Shown in pieces: positions 32,514 to 48,663 of a DNA stretch of 64,000 bases. Both the position numbers and the translations under genes were made by a program. A model generated the notes under the pieces. It did no database searches. It was given only the letters and a program-made list of their open reading frames with translations, and was not told the DNA's origin. Location of the stretch: assembly GCA_963811385.1 (NCBI GenBank), contig CAWEQX010000002.1, forward strand, positions 227,081 through 291,080, written 5' to 3'. Every line of letters begins with the position of its first letter. The stretch's first letter is position 1. Source of the stretch: an uncultured Actinomycetota bacterium. GTDB lineage: Bacteria; Actinomycetota; Actinomycetes; Propionibacteriales; Nocardioidaceae.

Positions 32514-34262
32514 TCAGCAGCCGCGACGCACGCCGGGGACCTCGACCGGCAGCCGGCCCGGCGCCGGTGCGCGGCCCAGCCAGAACGCGACGAGCGCGCG
32601 CATCGGACCCGGCCCTGCGCCGTAGGTCGCCACCCGCACCGCGGCGGCCGTGCGCCCGAGGAGGTACGGCGTGTCCACGGCCACCACGTAGTCGGAGGCC
32701 GGCACCGGGCCGCCGCGCCCGACCAGGTCGACGCGCGTGCCCCGCAGGACGGGCCGCGGCTCGATCGCCTGCCACTGCTCGATCACCCGCCGCTTGCGCT
32801 TCTTGCTCCACTTCTTCCGCAGCTCCGGCCGGGGCGGCTTGACCAGGTCCACGTGGCCCAGCGCGAGCCCGGCCTCCGCCGCCGCCTCCCGGAAGGACGC
32901 CACCGCGGCCGGGTCGCCGAACGGGATCGGCAGGGACGGCGCGATCCGGCCCGAGCACGGCCCCGCCACCGAGGTGAGCGCCTCGGCGGAGAGTCGCGCG
33001 GCCATGGGCCGGGCCGTCCCGACCGGCCGGGACTGCCCGGGACGGCGGGTCGCCCGCTGGTGGAGCAGCAGCGCGACCTGCCGGGCGGCAGCCTGCTCGA
33101 GCCGCCGTCGGGTGAGGTGACCCTCCCGCACCGCACGCACGATCGCGGTCCGCGCTCCGGCGGGGTCCTGCGGCATCAGCGCGACGTCCACCCCGGCCTG
33201 CAGCGCCGCGACGGCAGCGCGGTCCGGCCCCCGGTGGTGGCGTACGGCGGCCATGTCGAGTGCGTCGGTGACCACCAGCCCGCGGAACCCGAGCCGCTCG
33301 CGCAGCAGCCCGGTCACCACCGGGCGGCTCAACGACGAGGGCACCCCCGGGTCGACGGCCCGCACGTCGAGGTGCCCGACCATGATCGCGGGCAGGCCGG
33401 CGTCGACGGCACGGCGGAACGGGACCCAGTCACGCTCGGAGAGCCGGCGCACCGAGCGGGTCTGGACCGGCAGGGTGACGTGGCTGTCGGCGGTGACCGA
33501 GCCGTGCCCGGGGAAGTGCTTGAGCACCGGGACCAGCCCGGCGTCCTGGAAGCCGCGGGCGGCCGCCATCACGTGCCGGGTCACCACGGCGGGGTCGCTG
33601 CCGACCGACCGCGAGCCGATCGCCGGGTCGGCCTCGCCGATCGTCACGTCGGCGTCCGGGGCGAAGTCCGTGGTGAAGCCGAGCCCGCGCAGCTCGCCGG
33701 CCGCGGCGGCGTACACCCGGCGCGTCAGCGACACGTCCCCGGCCGCGCCCGCGGACATGAAGTCCGGCAGCTGCGAGACGTCGCCGCGCACGCGCTGCAC
33801 GGTCCCGCCCTCCTGGTCGACCCCGACCAGCAACGGCCACGGCCGGCGTACGTCGCGGCGCAGGCGGGCGGTCGTGCTGCGGACCTGCTCGGCCGAGACG
33901 ACGTTGTCGGCGAAGACGATGACGCCGCCCAGGTGGAGCCGCCGCACGAGATCGACCGGTGCCGCGGTGCCGGCGTAGCGGGCCACGATCACCTGGCCGG
34001 CGAGGTCGCTCAGGGGCAGCGCGTGCACGAGGCGGGCGGCCCGCTCGAGCTCGGCCCTGGTCGGCCCCCAACCGGTCCGCAGCGCCAGGCGCTCGGCCGG
34101 TGTCGGCGGGTCGGGCGCGGCCGGCTCCGCGCTGTCGGCCCTCCCGGGCTCGTCGGGCGCGGAGCCGCCGAGGTCGCACCCGCCGAGCAGCGCACCGGCC
34201 AGCAGGGCACCGGCCGACACGAGGGCGGCGGCACGCGTACGAGGAGGGGACCGGCGAGCCAC
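32514..34262 (-). CDS. glycoside hydrolase family 3 lipoprotein (NagZ-like beta-N-acetylhexosaminidase) with C-terminal extension
   Basis: 582 aa. Lipobox LLGGC, a GH3 N-domain (GGVIVF, VGVDQEGG, KHFPGHG, VVTDAL). It starts 27 nt downstream of the SARP-STAND gene on the same strand. Confidence 0.88.
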   Translation of the reverse strand: MARRSPPRTRAAALVSAGALLAGALLGGCDLGGSAPDEPGRADSAEPAAPDPPTPAERLALRTGWGPTRAELERAARLVHALPLSDLAGQVIVARYAGTAAPVDLVRRLHLGGVIVFADNVVSAEQVRSTTARLRRDVRRPWPLLVGVDQEGGTVQRVRGDVSQLPDFMSAGAAGDVSLTRRVYAAAAGELRGLGFTTDFAPDADVTIGEADPAIGSRSVGSDPAVVTRHVMAAARGFQDAGLVPVLKHFPGHGSVTADSHVTLPVQTRSVRRLSERDWVPFRRAVDAGLPAIMVGHLDVRAVDPGVPSSLSRPVVTGLLRERLGFRGLVVTDALDMAAVRHHRGPDRAAVAALQAGVDVALMPQDPAGARTAIVRAVREGHLTRRRLEQAAARQVALLLHQRATRRPGQSRPVGTARPMAARLSAEALTSVAGPCSGRIAPSLPIPFGDPAAVASFREAAAEAGLALGHVDLVKPPRPELRKKWSKKRKRRVIEQWQAIEPRPVLRGTRVDLVGRGGPVPASDYVVAVDTPYLLGRTAAAVRVATYGAGPGPMRALVAFWLGRAPAPGRLPVEVPGVRRGC

Positions 34263-34288: not shown

Positions 34289-37200
34289 CTAGCGTGATGC
34301 CGGGCACGTGGTCTCGAAGGGGACGCTGGGCATCACGTCCTCCCACTCCTCGACGGTCAGGCTGCGCCCGACGATGTGGCACGCGACTGCGCGCGCTCGC
34401 TCCACCGAGGTGTCCCACTCGTAGACCGACCCGTCCGCGGCGGCGATGCGCACGGTGCGGCTGTCCGGCAGGAACGCCGGCGACACGAGCGCGTTGCCCA
34501 GGCGCACGGTGCCCAGGAGGTCGGCGGTGCGCCCGTCCCAGAGACTGAGGCGACCGGTCCCGTCGGCGGTGACCACGCGGCGGCCGTCAGGGGAGTACCT
34601 CGCCTCCAGTCCGTCGGACTCCGTCTCGACCAGCGCCGCTCCTGAGCCGCGCGCCTTGCCGGAGGCGAGGTCCACGATCTCGAGCTGCCCGCCCCCGGCC
34701 ACCGCCAGCCTCGCGCCGTCCGGCGACAACGCCGCCGAGTGCGGCCGGATGCCGAAGTCCCCTCGCCCGACGACGCTGCCGTCCCCCAGGTCCACCAGGG
34801 CCCAGCCCTCGACCTGCGTGAAGTCGAACGCGGCCCGCGGCTGGTCCGCGGTGAGCGCGACGAGACCGGAGTCCGACGGGGTGACGAGGCTGTCCACCAC
34901 GTGGCCCACGTCGGGGCGGAGCGGCCGGGACAGCGTCGCCAGGGTCGCCGCGTCGAGGACGGCCCAGCCGCGGGCGAGGCGCGCCACGATCCGCGACCCG
35001 TCGGCGGTGTAGTCCGCCTGCTCGACGGACAGGTCGCGGCGCGCGAGGACCCGCCCGGTGGACACGTCGACGACGTACAGCGAGGTCGGGCTCACGATGA
35101 CCAGTCGGCGGCCGTCTGGGCGCCAGGAGCCGGTGAAGTCGGTGCCCAGCCAGCCGGGACCGCGCACGTTCGTCTCGGCCCCGGACTCCACGTCGACCAG
35201 GAAGACCCGGGTCCGCTGGGTCGTGCCTCGGCGCACCTGGGCCACGACGGTGTCCCCGGTCGGGGACAGGAAGCGACTGTCCCACGTCTCCTGCACCTTG
35301 CGCGCGGGGGGTGCCGTCCGCCGCACATAGCGCTCACGACCGCTCAGGTCGAAGCTCCACAGCCCCGTGTCGGTGACGGTCAGCAGCCTCTCGCCGTCGG
35401 GGCTGAACCGTACGTCGTCGGCGAAGTCGGCGCGCTCGGTCTCGATGCGCTGCCGCAGCAGGCCGGACCTCAGGTCCCAGATCCCCACCGCGCCCTCCCC
35501 GCCGGTCGCGGCGAGGAGGCTGCCGTCGGCGGAGAACTCCACCTCGCCGTCCTCCGCGACCGGCAGACCGGTCAGCCGCCGCGTCTCCCGCCACGTGGCG
35601 GCGTCGAGGAGCACCACCTGGTCGTCCCGGACGGCGGCGACGACCGACCCGTCGGGCGAGAGCGCCATGGCGCTGTGGGGCCCCGTGCGGCTGACCACGG
35701 TGCGCCCGGTGCTCACCTCGATGGTCTGCAGGGGGACGGCGGGCAGGTCGGAGTTCCATCCCGGGACGACGTAGAGGCGGTCGCCGGCCGGGGACATCCT
35801 CAGATGCACGAGGTCTCCGATCGGTCTGACCCTCAGGATCGGCCGCTCCGGGCGAGCGGTGTCCCAGACCACCTCCAACGGCCCCAGGCCCCGGTTCCTC
35901 TCGGCGTCGTACCGGTCGAAGGAGACCGCGACCCGGCTGCCGTCCGCGCTGAAGCTGGCGCCGGTCGGGATCGCCTGCCGGGGCTGGCCGCGCAGCTGAC
36001 GTCGCAGCGGCACCAGGGTCCTGCCGTCCAGCAGACGCACCGGGTCGTGGACCTGGCTGGGGACGCCGAGGACCAGGATCTCGCCGTCCGGGCTGAAGGC
36101 GGCCGGGTCGCACACGCAGAACACCTCGGTCGACCAACCCGGTGGCTGGGGGTCGTAGGTGGCGACCTCGGGTACGCCCCGCCCGTCGTACAGGTGCACG
36201 CGCGCAGCGCGGTCCACGACCGCCACCTGCCCGCTCACCGGGTTGACGTCCAGCCAGGACGGCGTCTGCCCGGTCGGCGTGAAGCGGGCCAGCGCAGGGT
36301 TGCGCGAGACCGCGGCCACCAGGCCGGCGACGGTCTCGCGTGACCGGTCGACCCGTACGGCGGCCAGCGCGAGCAGCAGGGAGAGGTCGTCGCGGTCGGT
36401 GAGCTGGGACAGGGCCGCGACCCGACGGGCCTGGGACTCCCGGGCCGACCGCGCGGCGCGGTCGGACTGACCGGCTGCCACGGCACCGGCGACCACCGCG
36501 ACCACGAGCAGTCCCACCACGGCTCCCAGGAGTCCCCGCAACCGTCGGTTGACCCGCCGCTGCTGCCTCGCCAGCGCGATGGCGTCGCGCTCCTCGGCCT
36601 CCGCTGCGTGCTGCCCCGCCTCGAGGAACGCGCGCTCGGACGACGACAGCTCGGGCTCGACCTGGGTCCGCCACTGCAGCGCTCGCGCGAGCCGGGTGCC
36701 GCGGTAGAGCTCGGACCCCGGGCGCTGCATCGCCTCCCACGTGTCCGCCGCGACGGTCAGGTGGCGACGGATCCGCTGACCCTCGGAGTCCTCGTCGAGC
36801 CAGCCACGCAGACGCGGCCAGGCGCGCACCAGCGCCTCGTGGGCGATCTCCACCGCCTCGCCGTCGATGCTGACCAGGCGCGCTGCGGCAAGCAGCTCCA
36901 CCACCCTGAGGTGGTCCTCGTCCACGGCCAGGCTCGCGCGGGGCACCCGCGCCCGGACCGCCTCCCCGTCCTCCGTCGCGATCACGAGGCGCAGGCACAG
37001 GTCGCGCATGCCTCGGCGTCCCGGTCCGTCCAGCTGCTGGTAGACGGCCTCGACGGTCCGCGCCACCGCGTCCCTGATCCCGCCCGATGCGCGATAGCCC
37101 TCCACGGTCAACGTGTGACCCTCTCGGCGCTCCCACGTGGCGCGGAGCACGTAGGACAGCATCGGCAGGGCCGCCGGGGCGCCGGCGACCTCACGCACCA

Positions 37201-38512
37201 GCAGGTCGACCAGCCCGGGCTCGAGCCGGAGCCCCGCACGCCTGGCCGGGCCCTCGATCGCCCGGCGCAGCTCCGCCTCGCCCATCGGGCCGAGCAGGTA
37301 GATGCCGCCCTCGAGGACACGGGCGACGTCCGGGTACGACGCGAACCGGGCCAGGTGGTCGGCCCGCACGGCGATCACCAACCGGCCTCCGGCCCCGACG
37401 TGGGCAGCGAGCATGGCGAAGTAGGTCGCGCGGAGCGCGGGGTCCGGGCAGAGGGTCATCGCCTCCTCGGCCTGGTCGACCACGAGGGTCTGCCGTCCTC
37501 TTGGCCCGAGCTCCCGCAGCGAGGCGACCGGATCCACACCGGGGTTGGTCACCAGCAGCGCGGCGCCGTCACGGGCGAGCGAGGCAAGCACGCCGGCCCG
37601 GACCAGCGAGGACTTCCCGGTCCCCGACGGCCCGACGACCGCGAGCACACCGGTGTCGCGGAGCCGCCGGAGGCAGGACGACACGTCGTCCTCGCGACCG
37701 AAGTAGGCATCGGCGTCCTCCGACCGGTACGCCAGCAGCCCGCGGTAGGGACACACGTCACTGACGTGCTTCTCCAGTGGCGGCGAGAGCGCCGGGTCCT
37801 GGCGGAGGATCCGCTGCTCCAGCTGGACCAGCTCGGGGCACGCGTCGAGGCCGAGCTCCTCGGCCAGCATCGTCCGAGCCTGGGCCACGGCGGCCAGTGC
37901 CTCGCGCTGCCGGCCCGCCGCGTAGAGCGCGGTCGACAGCAGCACCCAGCGTCGCTCCCGGAACGGCTCGTTGGCGGTCAGCACCCTCGCGCGCTCGAGC
38001 ACGCCTCGCGCCCGGCCCGCCAGCGTGTCCGCCTCGACGAGCAGCTCCTCGGCATCCAGACGCAGTCCTTCCAGCCTGGTGGCCGCGACCCGCCCCGGCT
38101 CCCATTCGACGAGGTCCTCCAGCGCCCTTCCCGTCCACAGCCGCAGGGCGTCGCGGAGCACGTGTGCTGCGCGGTCCGAGTCCTCGGCGTCGAGGGCCTC
38201 GCGCGCCCCGTCCAGCAGGTGCTCGAACCGCCAGGTGTCGAGCTCGTCGCCACTGACCACGAGCCGGTAGCCGGTCGGCCCGGACTCGATCGCCGCCGGT
38301 CCGAGTCGCTTGCGCAACCGGACCACACAGCCCTGCACGACCTTCGCCCAGGACGCCGGCGGGGCCTCCCCCCACAAGGCGTCCGCGAGGGCCTGGGAGC
38401 TGAGCGGCTCGCCGAAGCGCGCGACGAGCGCGGCGAGGACCACCCGGTCCCTGCCACGCAACGCGTCCGTCTGGCCGTCGACCCGCAACGGACCGAGAAC
38501 ACCAATGGCCAC
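34289..38512 (-). CDS. membrane-tethered SARP (OmpR-wHTH + BTAD) / STAND P-loop NTPase / double beta-propeller protein
   Basis: 1407 aa from GTG 38512 (VAIGVLGPLRVDG...). The domains in order are a BTAD region, CPYRGLLAYRSEDADAYFGRED, Walker A GPSGTGKSS (nt 37607-37633) and Walker B LVVDQAEE. A single TM helix (nt 36470-36532) follows, then about 700 aa of TolB/WD40-like repeats. The 60 upstream codons of the track ORF look non-coding. Confidence 0.85.
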   Translation of the reverse strand: MAIGVLGPLRVDGQTDALRGRDRVVLAALVARFGEPLSSQALADALWGEAPPASWAKVVQGCVVRLRKRLGPAAIESGPTGYRLVVSGDELDTWRFEHLLDGAREALDAEDSDRAAHVLRDALRLWTGRALEDLVEWEPGRVAATRLEGLRLDAEELLVEADTLAGRARGVLERARVLTANEPFRERRWVLLSTALYAAGRQREALAAVAQARTMLAEELGLDACPELVQLEQRILRQDPALSPPLEKHVSDVCPYRGLLAYRSEDADAYFGREDDVSSCLRRLRDTGVLAVVGPSGTGKSSLVRAGVLASLARDGAALLVTNPGVDPVASLRELGPRGRQTLVVDQAEEAMTLCPDPALRATYFAMLAAHVGAGGRLVIAVRADHLARFASYPDVARVLEGGIYLLGPMGEAELRRAIEGPARRAGLRLEPGLVDLLVREVAGAPAALPMLSYVLRATWERREGHTLTVEGYRASGGIRDAVARTVEAVYQQLDGPGRRGMRDLCLRLVIATEDGEAVRARVPRASLAVDEDHLRVVELLAAARLVSIDGEAVEIAHEALVRAWPRLRGWLDEDSEGQRIRRHLTVAADTWEAMQRPGSELYRGTRLARALQWRTQVEPELSSSERAFLEAGQHAAEAEERDAIALARQQRRVNRRLRGLLGAVVGLLVVAVVAGAVAAGQSDRAARSARESQARRVAALSQLTDRDDLSLLLALAAVRVDRSRETVAGLVAAVSRNPALARFTPTGQTPSWLDVNPVSGQVAVVDRAARVHLYDGRGVPEVATYDPQPPGWSTEVFCVCDPAAFSPDGEILVLGVPSQVHDPVRLLDGRTLVPLRRQLRGQPRQAIPTGASFSADGSRVAVSFDRYDAERNRGLGPLEVVWDTARPERPILRVRPIGDLVHLRMSPAGDRLYVVPGWNSDLPAVPLQTIEVSTGRTVVSRTGPHSAMALSPDGSVVAAVRDDQVVLLDAATWRETRRLTGLPVAEDGEVEFSADGSLLAATGGEGAVGIWDLRSGLLRQRIETERADFADDVRFSPDGERLLTVTDTGLWSFDLSGRERYVRRTAPPARKVQETWDSRFLSPTGDTVVAQVRRGTTQRTRVFLVDVESGAETNVRGPGWLGTDFTGSWRPDGRRLVIVSPTSLYVVDVSTGRVLARRDLSVEQADYTADGSRIVARLARGWAVLDAATLATLSRPLRPDVGHVVDSLVTPSDSGLVALTADQPRAAFDFTQVEGWALVDLGDGSVVGRGDFGIRPHSAALSPDGARLAVAGGGQLEIVDLASGKARGSGAALVETESDGLEARYSPDGRRVVTADGTGRLSLWDGRTADLLGTVRLGNALVSPAFLPDSRTVRIAAADGSVYEWDTSVERARAVACHIVGRSLTVEEWEDVMPSVPFETTCPASR

Positions 38513-38518
38513 CCCTCG

Positions 38519-38547
38519 ACTGTCACCGTGCAGGAACTCCCCGTCAA
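38519..38547 (-). promoter_or_regulatory. candidate leaderless promoter of the SARP-STAND gene (-35 TTGACG, 17-nt spacer, -10 GACAGT, 6 nt, GTG)
   Basis: Read on the minus strand: TTGACG gggagttcctgcacggt GACAGT cgaggg GTG. Confidence 0.35.
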
Positions 38548-38550
38548 CAG

Positions 38551-38593
38551 CCGCGATACCACCGCGATACCGGCGCCCCACCGCCGCGATACC
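38551..38593. promoter_or_regulatory. three perfect 10-bp direct repeats CCGCGATACC with starts spaced 11 and 22 bp (SARP-type binding-site architecture)
   Basis: Copies lie at 38551-38560, 38562-38571 and 38584-38593. They sit 3 nt upstream of the putative -35 of the SARP-STAND gene and about 90 nt upstream of the divergent small-protein gene. Confidence 0.5.
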
Positions 38594-38679
38594 GCCGTCC
38601 TCTACGCCGTCCTCATCAGATGGTGACGACCCGGGCCCGAGAGGCCCGCGCGGCCACCCAGACGCAAGGAGCACACACC

Positions 38680-38943
38680 ATGACCACCACATCGATCCGT
38701 GCGACCGCGATCCTCACCGCAGCACTCGCCACGGTGGCAGTGGCCGCTGCGCCATCGCCCGCAGCCACACCGACCCACGCCGTGTCCGAGCCTGCGGCCT
38801 ACGCCCCGGGTGCGCGTCTCGACGTCGGCGGAGCCGGACAGCTGCTCCTGGGTGCCGTGAGCGACGAGCACGTCACGATCACCGTGCTCGGTGTGCACGT
38901 CGGCGGCGACGGCTGGTCGGGCGGCACGCTGCTCATTCGCTGA
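38680..38943 (+). CDS. small secreted protein (87 aa), unknown family
   Basis: ATG at 38680 lies 9 nt after AAGGAG. Signal peptide MTTTSIRATAILTAALATVAVAAAPSPA. Gly-rich mature part. Divergent from the SARP-STAND gene. Confidence 0.6.
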   Translation: MTTTSIRATAILTAALATVAVAAAPSPAATPTHAVSEPAAYAPGARLDVGGAGQLLLGAVSDEHVTITVLGVHVGGDGWSGGTLLIR

Positions 38944-44890: not shown

Positions 44891-47152
<2,262 letters not shown>

Positions 47153-47187
47153 CTCGTTCCTTTCGGGGTTGTCGGGGGGACGTGCGG

Positions 47188-47628
47188 TCAGGCTGTCGAG
47201 CGGGCGGTCGCGCAGGCAGGGCAGGTGCCCCAGAACACGACCTCGGCCTCGTCGACCACGAAGCCGTGGTCGACGGAGGCGGTCAGGCAGGGGGCGCGGC
47301 CGACGGCGCAGTCCACGTCGTCGATCCGGCCGCACGAGCGGCACACGACGTGGTGGTGGTTGTCGCCGACCCGGGCCTCGTAGCGCGCGGTGGCGCCGGC
47401 CGGCTGGAACCGGCGGACCAGGCGCGCGTCGGTCAGCACCCGCAGGACGTCGTAGACGGCCTGGGTGGACACGGTGGGCACCTCTGTGCGGACCAGCGCG
47501 ATGAGCGCCTCGGTGTCGAGGTGCGGGTGCCGGTGGACCGCGCGCAGGACGGCCAGCCGAGGACGCGTCACCCGCAGCGACGCCTCCCTCAGCACGGTCG
47601 TCAGGTCGGAGGTCGGCACGTCCGCCAC
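47188..47628 (-). CDS. furA: Fur-family peroxide-responsive repressor
   Basis: 146 aa from GTG 47628 ([28 protein letters not shown]...). Contains the HHHVVC...C and CxxC metal motifs. Lies immediately upstream of katG. A longer start at 47697 would overlap the divergent SDR start. Confidence 0.88.
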
Positions 47629-47695
47629 CCTGCTGTCTTTTCTGGAACGAGTCAAGTCTTGTCTCGACCACCGGTCCGGCGGGTACGTGGCACCC

Positions 47696-48652
47696 ATGTC
47701 CCCTCCGCACCCCCTCCCCCCGACCACGCGGGTCGTCGTCGTCACCGGCGCGACCAGCGGCATCGGCCTGGCCACCGCCCACCAGGCCGCCGACGAGGGC
47801 GACGTCGTCGTCCTGGCCGCCCGCTCCGAGCAGCGGCTGCGCGAGGTCGAGTCCGAGTGCCGAGACCGTGGCGCCCACGACGCCCTGACCTGTCCCGCCG
47901 ACGTCGGCGACGACGCCGCGGTGGCCGGACTCGTCGACGCCGTCCTTGCGCGCTTCGGCCGCATCGACGCGGTGGTCCACAGCGCCGGCGTGGTCGCCTA
48001 CGGGCGCACCGAGGACGTCCCGGTCGAGGTCTTCGCCAAGGTGCTGCACACCAACGTGATGGGCTCGGTCCACGTCGCCCGTCACGTGGTGCCGGTCCTG
48101 CGCCGGCAGCACCACGGCACCCTGGTGCTGGTCGGCTCGGTCATCGGGCACATCGCCGTGCCCGGCATGACGCCGTACGCCGTCAGCAAGTGGGGCGTCC
48201 GCGCCCTGGCCCGGCAGCTCCAGCTGGAGAACCGCGACCGGCCCGGGATGGTCGCCTACGTCGCGCCCGGCGGCGTCGACACCCCGATCTACCTCCAGGC
48301 CGGCAACTACTCCGGCTTCGTCGGCCGGCCACCCCCGCCCGTGGTCCCCCCGGCCTACGTCGCGCGCAAGGCCCTGCGCCTGACCCGCCGCCCCCGCTCC
48401 GGGGTGCGGGCCCGGGTGCAGGCCGGCCCCGCCAACGACGTGATGCGCCTGGGCTTCTCGCTGCTGCCCGGGGTCTTCGACCGGCTGGTCGGCCCGCTGG
48501 TGCCCTACGGCTCCAAGGACCTGACCGACCCCGTCCCGGCCGGTCCGGGCAACGTGCTCGCGCCGCGGCCGCAGGACGAGCGGCTGCGGGGCGAGCAGGG
48601 CAGCGCCGTGCTCGGGGTCGTGCGCAACCTCGCCGCCGCGCTGCGTCGCTGA
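47696..48652 (+). CDS. SDR-family oxidoreductase
   Basis: 318 aa from the internal ATG ([26 protein letters not shown]). Has the TGxxxGxG motif and the YxxxK motif (YAVSKWG). Confidence 0.88.
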
Positions 48653-48663
48653 GACAGGCACGC

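What the first reader, a model, noticed from the sequence alone, without database searches (positions are those of the whole stretch)
34289..38512. Membrane-tethered SARP-STAND regulator with an extracytoplasmic double beta-propeller
**Seen in the sequence.** One 1407-aa protein combines the following, in order:
- An OmpR-type winged helix plus BTAD (SARP) DNA-binding N-terminus.
- A STAND-type P-loop NTPase: CPYRGLLAYRSEDADAYFGRED, Walker A GPSGTGKSS and Walker B LVVDQAEE.
- A single hydrophobic helix, LLGAVVGLLVVAVVAGAVAAG, preceded by RRVNRRLR (positive-inside rule).
- About 700 aa of TolB/WD40-like repeats.

**Established knowledge.** The characterised large SARPs such as AfsR are soluble and carry TPR sensors. 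ToxR- and CadC-type regulators are membrane-bound one-component systems.

**Inference.** The DNA-binding and ATPase modules would be cytoplasmic and the propellers outside the cell. That makes a ToxR-like one-component sensor gated by a STAND switch. I have not seen this architecture characterised.
Basis: partly seen in the sequence, partly recalled or inferred. Interest (0 to 1): 0.7.

Follow-up and report, generated by a model that had tools for sequence, protein, structure and literature searches.

The report
Membrane-spanning SARP–STAND regulator with outside propellers
This gene encodes a 1407-residue transcription factor that appears to span the membrane, with DNA-binding and ATPase parts inside the cell and two beta-propellers outside; it belongs to a large, uncharacterised actinobacterial family that carries conserved binding-site-like repeats in its own promoter.

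Summary
One minus-strand ORF (34289-38512, GTG start) encodes, in order:
- a SARP module (OmpR-type winged helix plus BTAD);
- an nSTAND1 P-loop NTPase;
- a single 21-residue hydrophobic helix;
- a 14-blade double WD40 propeller.

The inside/outside topology is well supported in silico across 226 homologues:
- the helix is present in 226 of 228;
- the charge bias is positive-inside in 225 of 226;
- the post-helix half has an even cysteine count in 213 of 226, against 125 of 226 for the cytoplasmic half.

The architecture is not rare. The 150 best 50%-identity clusters all cover the full SARP+nSTAND1 region. The nSTAND1–helix–propeller module also carries kinase, cyclase, TIR, protease or HTH heads in other phyla. 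I found no experimental characterisation in the held paper library.

New here: 84 of 84 orthologue promoters share GGTAWC direct repeats in 22+11 bp phase, upstream of TTGAC-N17-GACAGT and a probably leaderless start. This points to autoregulation.

The most likely mechanism is a ToxR-like transmembrane one-component regulator whose output is gated by STAND oligomerisation. The signal is unknown; recurrent peptidoglycan-enzyme neighbours hint at the cell envelope. I rate it a new variant of known kinds, interest about 0.6.

The parts
34289..38512 (-). Whole gene: SARP–nSTAND1–TM–double WD40 propeller protein, 1407 aa, GTG start at 38512, stop codon 34289-34291
   Evidence: ORF list and translation. 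GC3 is 0.93. The 120 best homologues are single ORFs of about 1400 aa. The start is fixed by orthologue N-termini and the conserved promoter.
38243..38512 (-). OmpR-type winged-helix DNA-binding domain (aa 1-90)
   Evidence: Pfam Trans_reg_C, aa 18-73, 25.3 bits against a 26.2 cut-off. phmmer to EmbR 2fez and AfsR 8hvr/8k60 gives E about 1e-31 over aa 3-245. Foldseek to AfsR 8k60_J gives TM-score 0.80 normalised to the target, 39% identity.
37805..38242 (-). BTAD, bacterial transcriptional activation domain (aa 91-236)
   Evidence: Pfam PF03704, E = 1.5e-29, full profile 1-146. All-helical in the AF2 model, pLDDT above 87.
36719..37750 (-). nSTAND1 P-loop NTPase module (aa 255-598), including the CPYxGL…FFGRE lead-in and the invariant AHEAL…WPRLR segment
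   Evidence: Pfam PF20703, 351.5 bits against a 27.1 cut-off, profile positions 1-377 of 379. The AF2 model shows an AAA+-like core, a helical lid and a winged helix; the nearest solved folds are RuvB and Cdc6/Orc1. Invariant residues are listed.
37607..37633 (-). Walker A, GPSGTGKSS (aa 294-302)
   Evidence: Read from the sequence. G294, S296, G297, G299, K300, S301 and S302 are invariant in 51 aligned homologues.
37463..37486 (-). Walker B, LVVDQAEE (aa 343-350)
   Evidence: Read from the sequence. V345, D346, Q347, E349 and E350 are invariant.
36533..36718 (-). Helical linker and positively charged juxtamembrane segment (aa 599-660, ending RRVNRRLRG)
   Evidence: The AF2 model has a continuous helix over aa 624-699. 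R656, R657, L658 and R659 are at least 90% conserved. Mean net charge of the 15 residues before the helix is +4.5.
36470..36532 (-). Single predicted transmembrane helix (aa 661-681)
   Evidence: Kyte-Doolittle 2.76, the only such segment in the protein. A segment with KD of at least 1.9 is present at this position in 226 of 228 long homologues. G676 is invariant and V674, A675 and A679 are conserved, forming a small-xxx-small motif.
36293..36469 (-). Extracytoplasmic stalk helix and small helical cap (aa 682-740)
   Evidence: AF2 C-terminal model: helices at fragment residues 2-65, 69-82 and 86-97.
34412..36292 (-). Double WD40-type beta-propeller, about 14 blades (aa 741-1367)
   Evidence: AF2 pLDDT is mostly above 85, with about 54 strands. 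Foldseek hits: 2ymu at E = 2e-32, Apaf-1 3sfz, Aip1 1nr0. Pfam WD40 and PD40 hits.
34292..34411 (-). C-terminal helical tail with the conserved cysteine pair C1378 and C1403
   Evidence: Both Cys are at least 90% conserved. At least two Cys occur in the last 60 aa in 218 of 226 homologues, spaced 25 residues apart in 178. A two-Cys tail is also present in six of the seven full-length nSTAND1 proteins of other phyla that were read to their ends.
38551..38593 (-). Three exact direct repeats GGTATCGCGG: R1 38584-38593, R2 38562-38571, R3 38551-38560. Spacing is 22 and 11 bp. Putative SARP box.
   Evidence: These are the only exact copies in the 64 kb window. The paired motif GGTAWC-N5-GGTAWC occurs once in the window, against 0.05 expected. 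In 84 non-identical orthologue upstream regions, repeats sit at -46 (54 of 84), -24 (76 of 84) and -13 (59 of 84) relative to TTGAC.
38519..38547 (-). Predicted promoter of the gene: -35 TTGACG (38542-38547), 17-nt spacer, -10 GACAGT (38519-38524), then 6 nt to the GTG start. The transcript is probably leaderless.
   Evidence: Read from the sequence. TTGAC lies 35-44 nt upstream of the start codon in 84 of 84 orthologue regions, and A2 and T6 of the -10 are conserved.
38680..38943 (+). Divergent gene for an 87-aa protein with a signal-peptide-like N-terminus. It shares the 167-bp intergenic region that holds the repeats.
   Evidence: AAGGAG ribosome-binding site and ATG. GC3 is 0.80. A 56-57% identical homologue sits at the same position in L001. 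No Pfam family.
32514..34262 (-). Downstream, probably co-transcribed GH3 beta-N-acetylglucosaminidase lipoprotein (NagZ/YbbD/LpqI type)
   Evidence: The gap to the regulator's stop codon is 26 nt, with no terminator-like site. Pfam Glyco_hydro_3, E = 2.5e-72. PDB 6k5j at 1.5e-58 and LpqI 6gfv at 8e-37. The N-terminus …LLGGC looks like a lipobox. The same arrangement is found in L001.

Best explanation
**What it is.** The gene encodes a transmembrane one-component transcription regulator.

**Shown by sequence and structure prediction**
- An N-terminal SARP DNA-binding/activation module.
- An nSTAND1 NTPase.
- One conserved hydrophobic helix embedded in a roughly 80-residue continuous helix.
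- A C-terminal double 7-bladed WD40 propeller with a cysteine-paired tail.

**Inferred with good support**
- The SARP and NTPase parts are cytoplasmic.
- The helix spans the membrane, N-in and C-out.
- The propellers sit outside the membrane in the wall zone.

**Inferred with less support**
1. The propellers bind an extracytoplasmic ligand or partner. This may be envelope-derived, because peptidoglycan enzymes recur next to the gene.
2. Binding changes the packing or clustering of the stalk and transmembrane helices. The invariant Gly and small-xxx-small motif in the helix fit such packing.
3. This licenses ADP/ATP exchange and oligomerisation of the nSTAND1 domains on the inner face of the membrane.
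4. Oligomerisation brings several SARP modules together. They then occupy the three in-phase GGTATC repeats just upstream of the gene's own -35 element.
5. Occupied repeats stimulate transcription of a probably leaderless mRNA that encodes the regulator itself and, in this genome, probably the NagZ-like GH3 lipoprotein. The divergent small secreted-protein gene may also respond.

The result would be a self-amplifying, membrane-located switch: a ToxR/CadC-like topology with an AfsR-like STAND gate.
For: **Architecture**
- Pfam hits for BTAD and nSTAND1.
- The SARP module is homologous to AfsR and EmbR by sequence (E about 1e-31) and by fold (TM-score 0.80 normalised to the target).
- The double propeller is modelled with high confidence.

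**Topology**
- One hydrophobic helix, present in 226 of 228 homologues.
- The N-flank is more positive than the C-flank in 225 of 226.
- The ectodomain has an even Cys count in 213 of 226, against 125 of 226 for the cytoplasmic half. Increases beyond the basal pair are mostly in twos: 81 homologues have 4-12 Cys, against 13 with 3 or 5.
- In both AF2 models the helix is part of one long solvent-exposed helix of moderate to low confidence and is not buried in a domain.

**The transmembrane segment looks functional**
- G676 is invariant; V674, A675 and A679 are conserved.

**Autoregulation**
- Three exact 10-mers at 22+11 bp spacing occur only here in the 64 kb window.
- The same layout is found in 84 of 84 non-identical orthologue promoters from genomes and metagenomes.
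- The paired motif occurs 81 times in 979 kb of fetched loci: once in each of 79 loci and twice in one. In every locus where its position was read it lies at the regulator's own promoter.
- Distant SARP-nSTAND1 homologues carry different direct repeats at 11- or 22-bp phase.
- SARP domains are known to bind in-phase direct repeats side by side (PMC11301090).

**Sensor-like evolution**
- The cytoplasmic half is 54-66% identical among most orthologues, the ectodomain 28-44%.
- A mosaic breakpoint at about aa 550-575 suggests the sensor module was exchanged as a unit.

**Envelope link**
- A GH3 NagZ-like lipoprotein lies 26 nt downstream.
- Divergent lipoprotein and PGA_cap/Peptidase_M15_4 genes occur in at least 17 and at least 11 related loci.
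Against: - Nothing is experimental.
- In characterised STAND proteins the repeat sensor contacts the NTPase directly to autoinhibit it. A membrane between the two rules that out, so the coupling mechanism proposed here has no precedent that I could find.
- The repeats lie upstream of an intact, near-consensus -35. They do not overlap a weak -35 with the proximal site 8 bp upstream of the -10, as at canonical SARP targets. They could therefore act differently (class-I-type activation or repression) or be bound by another factor.
- One orthologue (L130) keeps the promoter but lacks the repeats.
- The homologues are related, so the counts of 225/226 and 213/226 are not independent events.
- No ligand can be named. 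Gene neighbourhoods are conserved only within subclades.
- A DNA-binding domain held at the membrane must reach the chromosome, as ToxR and CadC do. Whether a protein with a 660-aa cytoplasmic part does so intact is unknown.
Confidence: 0.6

Rival explanations
1. Membrane-tethered precursor activated by proteolysis. The protein is anchored as described, but the signal causes cleavage at or near the helix (regulated intramembrane proteolysis). The SARP–NTPase part is released and then oligomerises and binds DNA in the cytoplasm.
For: This reading removes the problem of a large DNA-binding protein working at the membrane, and the problem of coupling through one helix. In one orthologous locus (L002) a Peptidase_M50 site-2-protease gene lies immediately downstream. 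The invariant Gly and small residues in the helix would also suit an intramembrane protease substrate.
Against: The M50 neighbour occurs in only one of the nine loci whose gene content was read (window), and tblastn found it in only that locus among all loci fetched. No conserved cleavage motif was identified. ToxR, CadC and TcpP show that winged-helix regulators can act while membrane-bound (established knowledge).
Confidence: 0.15
2. The propellers are a scaffold or localisation device rather than a ligand sensor. They would dock the regulator to a wall or membrane complex. The real input would be cytoplasmic, for example nucleotide state or Ser/Thr phosphorylation as for AfsR and EmbR.
For: WD40 propellers are generic protein-interaction platforms. 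SARP relatives AfsR and EmbR are controlled by cytoplasmic kinases (established knowledge). No ligand-binding pocket or conserved partner gene was found.
Against: The ectodomain diverges much faster than the cytoplasmic half and appears to have been swapped as a module. That is typical of specificity-determining sensors. The same helix-plus-propeller module serves many different outputs, which suggests it is the common input device.
Confidence: 0.12
3. A soluble cytoplasmic SARP–STAND–WD40 regulator, analogous to AfsR or Apaf-1. The hydrophobic segment would be a buried or oligomerisation helix and not a membrane span.
For: All characterised STAND/NLR proteins with repeat sensors are cytosolic, and their sensors contact the NTPase directly (PMC13581612 and the AfsR preprint). 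G-beta-type WD40 domains are mostly cytoplasmic.
Against: The segment is 21 uncharged residues with KD 2.4-3.0, flanked by charge clusters with positive-inside asymmetry in 225 of 226 homologues. The even-Cys bias applies only downstream of it. AF2 does not pack it against any domain.
Confidence: 0.07
4. An NLR-like conflict or anti-phage system in which the SARP head is the effector, because nSTAND1 proteins were defined in counter-invader systems.
For: nSTAND1 was named in predicted conflict systems with TIR, caspase and trypsin effectors (PMC8195603). Relatives with TIR_2 and Trypsin_2 heads share the same helix-plus-propeller module. The sensor half is fast-evolving and mosaic.
Against: There were no significant PADLOC hits (best E = 0.004, 14.7 bits, to P-loop stretches). 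None of the nine neighbourhoods read is a recognisable defence locus; they hold housekeeping, metabolic and envelope genes. The head is a transcription activator with a conserved cis-element at its own promoter. An extracytoplasmic sensor would not meet intracellular phage proteins.
Confidence: 0.05

Closest known systems
AfsR-type large SARPs (SARP + NB-ARC-type STAND + TPR; Streptomyces AfsR, PolY)
   Same: Both have an N-terminal OmpR-type winged helix plus BTAD. Sequence similarity to AfsR is E about 1e-31 at 39% identity, and the fold TM-score is 0.80 normalised to the target. Both follow this with a STAND-class P-loop NTPase and a C-terminal repeat domain. The expected logic is the same: an NTP-dependent switch controls binding of several SARP modules to in-phase direct repeats (PMC11301090; AfsR preprint).
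   Different: The NTPase belongs to the nSTAND1 clade, not NB-ARC. The NCBIfam AfsR equivalog model scores 136.9 bits against a cut-off of 1430 and aligns only aa 3-252. The sensor is a double WD40 propeller rather than TPR, and a membrane-spanning helix separates it from the NTPase. The repeats lie upstream of a good -35 instead of replacing a weak one.
ToxR / CadC / TcpP membrane-bound one-component regulators
   Same: Both have a cytoplasmic N-terminal OmpR-type winged-helix DNA-binding domain, a single transmembrane helix, an extracytoplasmic C-terminal sensor domain, and a disulfide-capable sensor (established knowledge for ToxR and CadC; inferred here).
   Different: Those proteins are small (about 300-500 aa) and have no BTAD and no NTPase. 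Their periplasmic domains are small alpha/beta folds unrelated to propellers. No sequence homology beyond the winged-helix class was detected: no ToxR or CadC hit appeared.
nSTAND1 proteins of predicted conflict systems (Kaur, Burroughs, Iyer and Aravind 2021, PMC8195603)
   Same: The NTPase family is the same (PF20703, E = 1e-104). In the relatives fetched here the module is also the same: nSTAND1, then a hydrophobic helix, then WD40 propellers, usually ending in a two-Cys tail.
   Different: The head domain here is a transcription activator rather than TIR, caspase, trypsin, kinase or cyclase. The gene is not in a defence context. In the passages I retrieved by searching those papers for transmembrane and membrane terms, I did not find the membrane-spanning topology of the clade discussed.
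Apaf-1 (NB-ARC + 7- and 8-bladed WD40 propellers)
   Same: Both have a double WD40 propeller sensor C-terminal to a STAND NTPase. Apaf-1 (3sfz, 3shf, 3j2t) is among the best structural matches to the C-terminal model.
   Different: Apaf-1 is cytosolic. Its propellers clamp a ligand and contact the NOD. It has a CARD head and no membrane helix.

Membership tests
SARP family (Streptomyces antibiotic regulatory proteins) | N-terminal OmpR/PhoB-type winged-helix DNA-binding domain | tested here: met
   phmmer to EmbR 2fez and AfsR 8hvr/8k60/8jke gives E = 2e-31 to 6e-30 over aa 3-247. Foldseek TM-score is 0.77-0.80 normalised to the AfsR SARP chains. Pfam Trans_reg_C alone is marginal: 25.3 bits against a 26.2 cut-off.
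SARP family (Streptomyces antibiotic regulatory proteins) | BTAD (bacterial transcriptional activation domain) directly after the DNA-binding domain | tested here: met
   PF03704, E = 1.5e-29, 103.7 bits against a 22.1 cut-off, profile positions 1-146 of 146.
SARP family (Streptomyces antibiotic regulatory proteins) | Binds direct repeats spaced one helical turn (11 bp) apart | tested here: inconclusive
   Candidate sites exist and are conserved: GGTAWC at -46, -24 and -13 relative to the -35 in 84 orthologue promoters. Binding itself cannot be tested with these tools.
SARP family (Streptomyces antibiotic regulatory proteins) | Target site overlaps a weak -35, with the proximal repeat 8 bp upstream of the -10 (PMC11301090) | tested here: not met
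   At the gene's own promoter the proximal repeat ends 3 nt upstream of an intact TTGACG -35, which is about 26 nt upstream of the -10. Other target promoters are unknown.
AfsR-like large SARPs | NB-ARC-type NTPase followed by a TPR sensor; soluble | tested here: not met
   The NCBIfam AfsR equivalog scores 136.9 bits against a cut-off of 1430 and aligns only aa 3-252. The NTPase is nSTAND1 and the sensor is WD40. A hydrophobic membrane helix is present.
STAND NTPases, nSTAND1 clade (PF20703) | Full-length match to the family model, with intact Walker A and Walker B | tested here: met
   351.5 bits against a 27.1 cut-off, profile positions 1-377 of 379. The GxxGxGKSS and hhhDQxEE motifs are invariant in 51 homologues.
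STAND NTPases, nSTAND1 clade (PF20703) | Tripartite layout: variable N-terminal output, central NTPase with winged-helix domain, C-terminal superstructure-forming repeats | tested here: met
   SARP head, an AAA+-like core with lid and winged helix in the AF2 model, and 14 WD40 blades. Relatives carry other heads.
STAND NTPases, nSTAND1 clade (PF20703) | Nucleotide-dependent oligomerisation switch | not testable with these tools
   Only inferred from family membership and the invariant AHEAL motif (H558, E559), a possible counterpart of the NLR MHD motif.
ToxR/CadC-type membrane-bound one-component regulators | Cytoplasmic winged-helix domain, single transmembrane helix, extracytoplasmic C-terminal sensor | tested here: inconclusive
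   The layout and in-silico topology evidence agree, but there is no experimental topology. This is a functional analogy only; no homology to ToxR or CadC sensor domains was found.
Known anti-phage defence systems (PADLOC models, Avs/bNACHT-like) | Match to a defence-system protein model or a defence-island context | tested here: not met
   Only two insignificant P-loop hits, E = 0.004. Neighbours are metabolic and envelope genes, with no recognised defence genes.

The most novel reading that the evidence does not exclude
The nSTAND1 clade as a whole would be a class of transmembrane NLR-like receptors. A double WD40 propeller outside the cytoplasmic membrane would sense an extracytoplasmic, possibly cell-wall-derived, ligand. 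It would signal through a single conserved helix by driving STAND oligomerisation on the inner face. Interchangeable heads would supply the output: SARP transcription factor, XRE-type HTH, kinase+LuxR, cyclase, TIR or protease. The SARP version in this window would then be a self-amplifying surface-to-promoter switch that controls peptidoglycan-turnover genes. NLR-type switches would therefore not be restricted to intracellular sensing.
Probability: 0.35. Interest if true: 0.8.

Novelty: new variant of a known kind. Interest (0 to 1): 0.6.

Why it matters
STAND/NLR switches are regarded as intracellular receptors in which the repeat sensor physically restrains the NTPase. A large, conserved family that places a membrane between sensor and NTPase would need a different coupling principle, namely signalling through one helix by clustering. 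It would also extend NLR-type logic to surface sensing.

For actinobacterial biology, it would add a fifth, membrane-bound class to the SARP regulators. This class is widespread in soil Actinomycetota outside the classical antibiotic clusters. It may be linked to cell-wall turnover, because NagZ-like GH3 and VanY-like/PGA_cap genes recur next to it.

The family is immediately testable. The promoter element found here (three GGTAWC repeats, TTGAC-N17-GACAGT and a probably leaderless start) gives a defined DNA probe, a reporter and a genome-wide search motif. Walker A and AHEAL mutations should give off and on alleles, by analogy with AfsR.

Tried and rejected
1. **Conserved operon partner.** I looked for a partner gene that would name the signal. 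Neighbourhoods differ between genera. Only subclade-level associations emerged, so no function could be assigned from context.
2. **Small secreted protein versus the lipoprotein.** I tested whether the divergent 87-aa protein is a remnant of the 170-250-aa lipoprotein found at that position in relatives. It is not: BLASTP E = 0.51, and neither has a Pfam family.
3. **Further binding sites (a regulon).** I searched the 64 kb window and about 979 kb of fetched loci. The paired motif occurs once per locus in 79 loci and twice in one, and I found no additional target promoter. A whole genome is needed.
4. **Defence-system reading.** PADLOC gave nothing significant.
5. **Solved-structure homologues of the NTPase.** None were found by sequence. 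By fold, only generic AAA+/initiator-type ATPases matched, so the STAND assignment rests on the Pfam nSTAND1 model.
6. **Cys1378-Cys1403 distance.** Model coordinates are not exposed to the scripting tool, so I could not measure it.
7. **Genome scan with the SARP+NTPase alignment.** It did reveal the other nSTAND1 architectures. A metagenome scan with a SARP-only alignment supplied the orthologue promoters.
8. **Taxonomic identity of the window.** It could not be obtained; the exact protein is in NCBI/ENA without a name.
9. **Upstream ATG at 38692.** I rejected it as the start. It would overlap the divergent gene and the conserved promoter.

Full report

Yes. The minus strand carries an ORF with its stop codon at 34289-34291. 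Third-position GC is 0.93, which marks a real gene in this 74% GC DNA.

Pfam finds the following:
- a marginal OmpR-type Trans_reg_C hit at aa 18-73 (25.3 bits against a cut-off of 26.2);
- BTAD at aa 91-236 (E = 1.5e-29);
- a full-length nSTAND1 match at aa 255-598 (E = 1.1e-104);
- many WD40/PD40-type hits between aa 900 and 1340.

LLGAVVGLLVVAVVAGAVAAG (aa 661-681) is the only strongly hydrophobic 19-mer in the protein (Kyte-Doolittle 2.76; next best 1.48).

The SARP assignment is firm. The N-terminal 245 residues match EmbR and AfsR chains at E about 1e-31. An AlphaFold2 model of aa 1-700 (pLDDT 81) superposes on the AfsR SARP module with a TM-score of 0.80 normalised to the target. The NTPase part folds as an AAA+-like core with a lid and a winged helix. 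It has no close solved relative, so its STAND label rests on the Pfam model.

An AlphaFold2 model of aa 640-1407 is confident (pLDDT 87.6, pTM 0.85). It shows one long helix, a small helical cap, about 54 strands (two seven-bladed propellers) and a helical tail. Foldseek's best hits are double WD40 propellers, including Apaf-1.

**2. Start codon and promoter**

The longest ORF (ATG 38692) and the database entry (P0001, 1430 aa) are too long. All orthologues start at the equivalent M-G-I-x-V-L-G-P-L. Immediately upstream of 38512 the minus strand reads:

GGTATCGCGG-N12-GGTATCGCGG-T-GGTATCGCGG-CTG-TTGACG-N17-GACAGT-N6-GTG.

The three exact 10-mers occur nowhere else in the 64 kb window. The paired motif occurs once, against 0.05 expected.

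To see whether this matters, I collected orthologous loci from genomes and metagenomes. Among 84 non-identical upstream regions:
- all 84 have TTGAC 35-44 nt before the start codon;
- GGTAWC-type repeats lie at -46 (54 of 84), -24 (76 of 84) and -13 (59 of 84) relative to it, which gives 22 and 11 bp spacings;
- the -10 (consensus gAcagT) follows after 17 nt;
- the start codon follows 6-7 nt later in most, which predicts a leaderless mRNA.

In 979 kb of fetched loci the paired motif occurs 81 times: once in each of 79 loci and twice in one. Wherever I read its position, it lies at the regulator's own promoter. Distant SARP-nSTAND1 homologues have different direct repeats in 11- or 22-bp phase.

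In-phase direct repeats are what SARP domains bind, side by side on one face of the DNA (PMC11301090). I therefore read this as an autoregulatory SARP box. It differs from canonical SARP targets in one respect: the repeats lie upstream of an intact, near-consensus -35 rather than replacing a weak one.

**3. Is the helix a membrane span, and are the propellers outside?**

No topology predictor was available, so I used comparative tests on 228 homologues of at least 1300 aa:
- A hydrophobic segment (KD of at least 1.9) sits at the same place in 226.
- The 15 residues before it carry mean net charge +4.5, against +0.36 after it. The N-side is more positive in 225 of 226, as the positive-inside rule predicts for N-in/C-out.
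- The part after the helix has an even number of cysteines in 213 of 226 (2 in 131, 4 in 55, 6 in 18, 8-12 in 8; odd in 13). The part before it is even in only 125 of 226.
- A Cys pair in the C-terminal tail (C1378 and C1403 here) is nearly invariant and is spaced 25 residues apart in 178.

Paired cysteines restricted to one side of a hydrophobic helix are what disulfide formation in an oxidising, extracytoplasmic compartment produces. This bias is known for exported proteins of Actinobacteria (my own knowledge, not checked in a paper here).

In both structure models the helix is part of one continuous helix of about 80 residues (aa 624-704) that packs against nothing. Inside the helix, G676 is invariant and V674, A675 and A679 are conserved. 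This small-xxx-small pattern is typical of helix-helix packing, so the segment looks like more than an anchor.

The DNA-binding and ATPase parts must be cytoplasmic and there is only one such helix. The propellers are therefore most likely outside.

**4. How common is it?**

Common.
- A word-indexed search gave at least 3200 hits at E below 1e-10. The best 120 are all single ORFs of 1381-1465 aa carrying BTAD, nSTAND1 and WD40.
- An exhaustive search with aa 1-700 against 50%-identity cluster representatives listed 150 best hits, all at E below 1e-146. Most span the whole SARP+NTPase region and most are about 1400 aa long. In total, 16,046 representatives scored below 1e-30, which includes other nSTAND1 and SARP proteins.
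- Named members come from Nocardioides, Knoellia, Nakamurella, Marmoricola and Ornithinibacter. More distant ones come from Acidimicrobiia, Thermoleophilia and Chloroflexia.
- Databases call them 'BTAD domain-containing putative transcriptional regulator' or 'nSTAND1 domain-containing NTPase'.

**5. The helix-plus-propeller module is a clade trait**

Of 33 intact nSTAND1 ORFs recovered from the genome scan, 29 have a strongly hydrophobic segment at or just after the end of the nSTAND1 match. Those read in full continue into WD40 repeats, and six of the seven that run to a C-terminus end in a two-Cys tail.

Their heads differ:
- Guanylate_cyc + AAA_16;
- HTH_31;
- Pkinase + GerE;
- Trypsin_2;
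- TIR_2;
- none.

They come from Actinomycetota, Chloroflexota, Cyanobacteria, Bacteroidota, Myxococcota and Proteobacteria. The SARP protein is therefore one output variant of a broad set of apparently transmembrane nSTAND1 receptors.

nSTAND1 was named in work on predicted conflict systems (PMC8195603). In the passages I retrieved from that paper and related ones by searching for transmembrane and membrane terms, I did not find this topology discussed.

**6. Evolutionary behaviour**

Against most orthologues the cytoplasmic half is 54-66% identical and the ectodomain only 28-44%. The aligned orthologues fall into two subfamilies, A and B.
- The window protein resembles subfamily B over aa 1-550 (65.5% against 56.0% for A).
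- It resembles subfamily A over aa 551-1407 (37.3% against 29.0% for B).
- The switch is clean, at about aa 550-575.

This suggests that the linker, helix and propellers were exchanged as a unit, as expected for a specificity-determining sensor module.

**7. Context and possible signal**

There is no family-wide conserved neighbour.

In this window and its 84%-identical relative L001:
- The gene is followed after 26 nt, with no terminator-like site, by a GH3 lipoprotein of the NagZ/YbbD/LpqI beta-N-acetylglucosaminidase type.
- It is preceded divergently by a small (87-89 aa) protein with a signal-peptide-like N-terminus and no known family.

In the most similar subclade:
- The divergent position holds an uncharacterised 170-250-aa lipoprotein in at least 17 loci.
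- This is followed by a PGA_cap protein in at least 11 loci. In the three loci with Pfam annotation, two of these are fused to a VanY-like Peptidase_M15_4 domain.

These recurrent peptidoglycan-related enzymes hint at an envelope-related signal or regulon. This is a lead and has not been demonstrated.

**8. Mechanism proposed**

Shown:
- domain composition;
- the fold of the head and of the propellers;
- conservation of the helix and of the promoter element.

Inferred with good support:
- N-in/C-out topology;
- autoregulation through the repeats.

Inferred with less support:
1. A ligand or partner binds to the propellers.
2. This changes the packing or clustering of the stalk and membrane helices.
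3. nSTAND1 nucleotide exchange and oligomerisation follow at the inner face of the membrane.
4. Several SARP heads are thereby brought onto the three in-phase repeats.
5. Transcription of the regulator itself is activated, probably together with the GH3 gene in this genome.

The topology is analogous to ToxR and CadC, and the gate is analogous to AfsR. The invariant AHEAL motif in the winged-helix region (H558, E559) may correspond to the MHD-type switch residue that was recently shown to give auto-active AfsR. This is a testable guess.

**9. Rivals**

- The head may be released by regulated proteolysis. One orthologous locus has an adjacent M50 protease.
- The propellers may be a scaffold, with the input being cytoplasmic.
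- The protein may be soluble. The charge and cysteine statistics argue against this.
- It may be a defence NLR. There are no significant PADLOC hits, no defence context, and the head is a transcription activator.

**10. Novelty and verdict**

The components are known: SARP, STAND, WD40 and membrane-bound winged-helix regulators. The family is already in databases under generic names.

I found no characterisation in the held literature. A 2024 review of SARP classes has no transmembrane or WD40 class. A membrane between a STAND NTPase and its repeat sensor has, as far as I could find, no characterised precedent.

I rate it a new variant of known kinds, with interest about 0.6. It is not unique or rare, but it is mechanistically unusual and widespread. 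With the conserved promoter element it can be tested directly.

Noticed in passing
window 34289-38512 (protein aa ~550-575, about 36790-36860): Mosaic signal. The protein is closer to orthologue subfamily B over aa 1-550 (65.5% against 56.0%) and closer to subfamily A over aa 551-1407 (37.3% against 29.0%). The switch is clean, just before the helical linker. This suggests the linker, helix and propeller module was exchanged as a unit.
   Followed up: partly
L010, L013, L014, L021, L029, L031, L033 and other loci: nSTAND1 proteins with quite different N-terminal heads share the same hydrophobic helix after the NTPase, followed by WD40 repeats and usually a two-Cys tail. The heads are adenylate/guanylate cyclase+AAA_16, XRE-type HTH, Ser/Thr kinase+LuxR HTH, trypsin-like protease, TIR, or none. 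The proteins come from six phyla, and 29 of 33 intact ORFs have the helix.
   Followed up: partly
window 32514-34262 (-): A GH3 beta-N-acetylglucosaminidase lipoprotein of the NagZ/YbbD/LpqI (peptidoglycan-recycling) type lies 26 nt downstream of the regulator on the same strand, with no terminator-like site. It is probably co-transcribed. The same arrangement is found in L001.
   Followed up: partly
window 38680-38943 (+): A divergent 87-aa ORF has a good AAGGAG ribosome-binding site and a signal-peptide-like N-terminus but no Pfam family. It is conserved at 56-57% identity at the same position in L001. It is unrelated to the lipoprotein that occupies this position in other orthologous loci.
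   Followed up: partly
L003, L004, L049-L066, L131, L132 (upstream of the regulator gene): In the most similar subclade the divergent neighbour is an uncharacterised 170-250-aa lipoprotein (at least 17 loci). It is followed by a PGA_cap protein (at least 11 loci), which is fused to a VanY-like Peptidase_M15_4 domain in two of the three loci with Pfam annotation. This recurrent cell-envelope gene pair shares the repeat-bearing intergenic region.
   Followed up: partly
orthologue upstream regions, about -61 relative to the TTGAC -35 (window about 38603-38608): A GTTGTC-like element about 15 nt upstream of repeat R1 recurs in many orthologue promoters. It is out of phase with the 11-bp repeats. 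Its role is unexplained; it could belong to a divergent promoter or be an extra site.
   Followed up: no
L024 and L040 (upstream of distant SARP-nSTAND1 homologues); L130: Distant homologues carry different direct repeats upstream of their genes: ACCTAAGT twice at 11-nt spacing in L040, and a roughly 19-nt unit twice at a 22-nt period in L024. Nocardioides pocheonensis (L130) keeps TTGACC-N17-GACAGT but has no repeats.
   Followed up: no
L002 12346-13491: In Nocardioides guangzhouensis a Peptidase_M50 (site-2 protease) gene with a faint CBS-domain hit lies directly downstream of the orthologue, followed by a GAF-HisKA_3 kinase gene. This was seen in only one locus, but it bears on the regulated-proteolysis rival.
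   Followed up: no
window 38513-38692: The public protein record for this gene (P0001, 1430 aa) starts 23 codons upstream of the conserved start. That extension would run through the conserved promoter and repeats, so the start is probably mis-annotated.
   Followed up: yes
window 44891-48661 (-): A 1256-aa ORF (GC3 0.87) has peroxidase-domain hits only at aa 617-920. It is either a catalase-peroxidase-like gene with an over-extended start or one with a long N-terminal extension.
   Followed up: no
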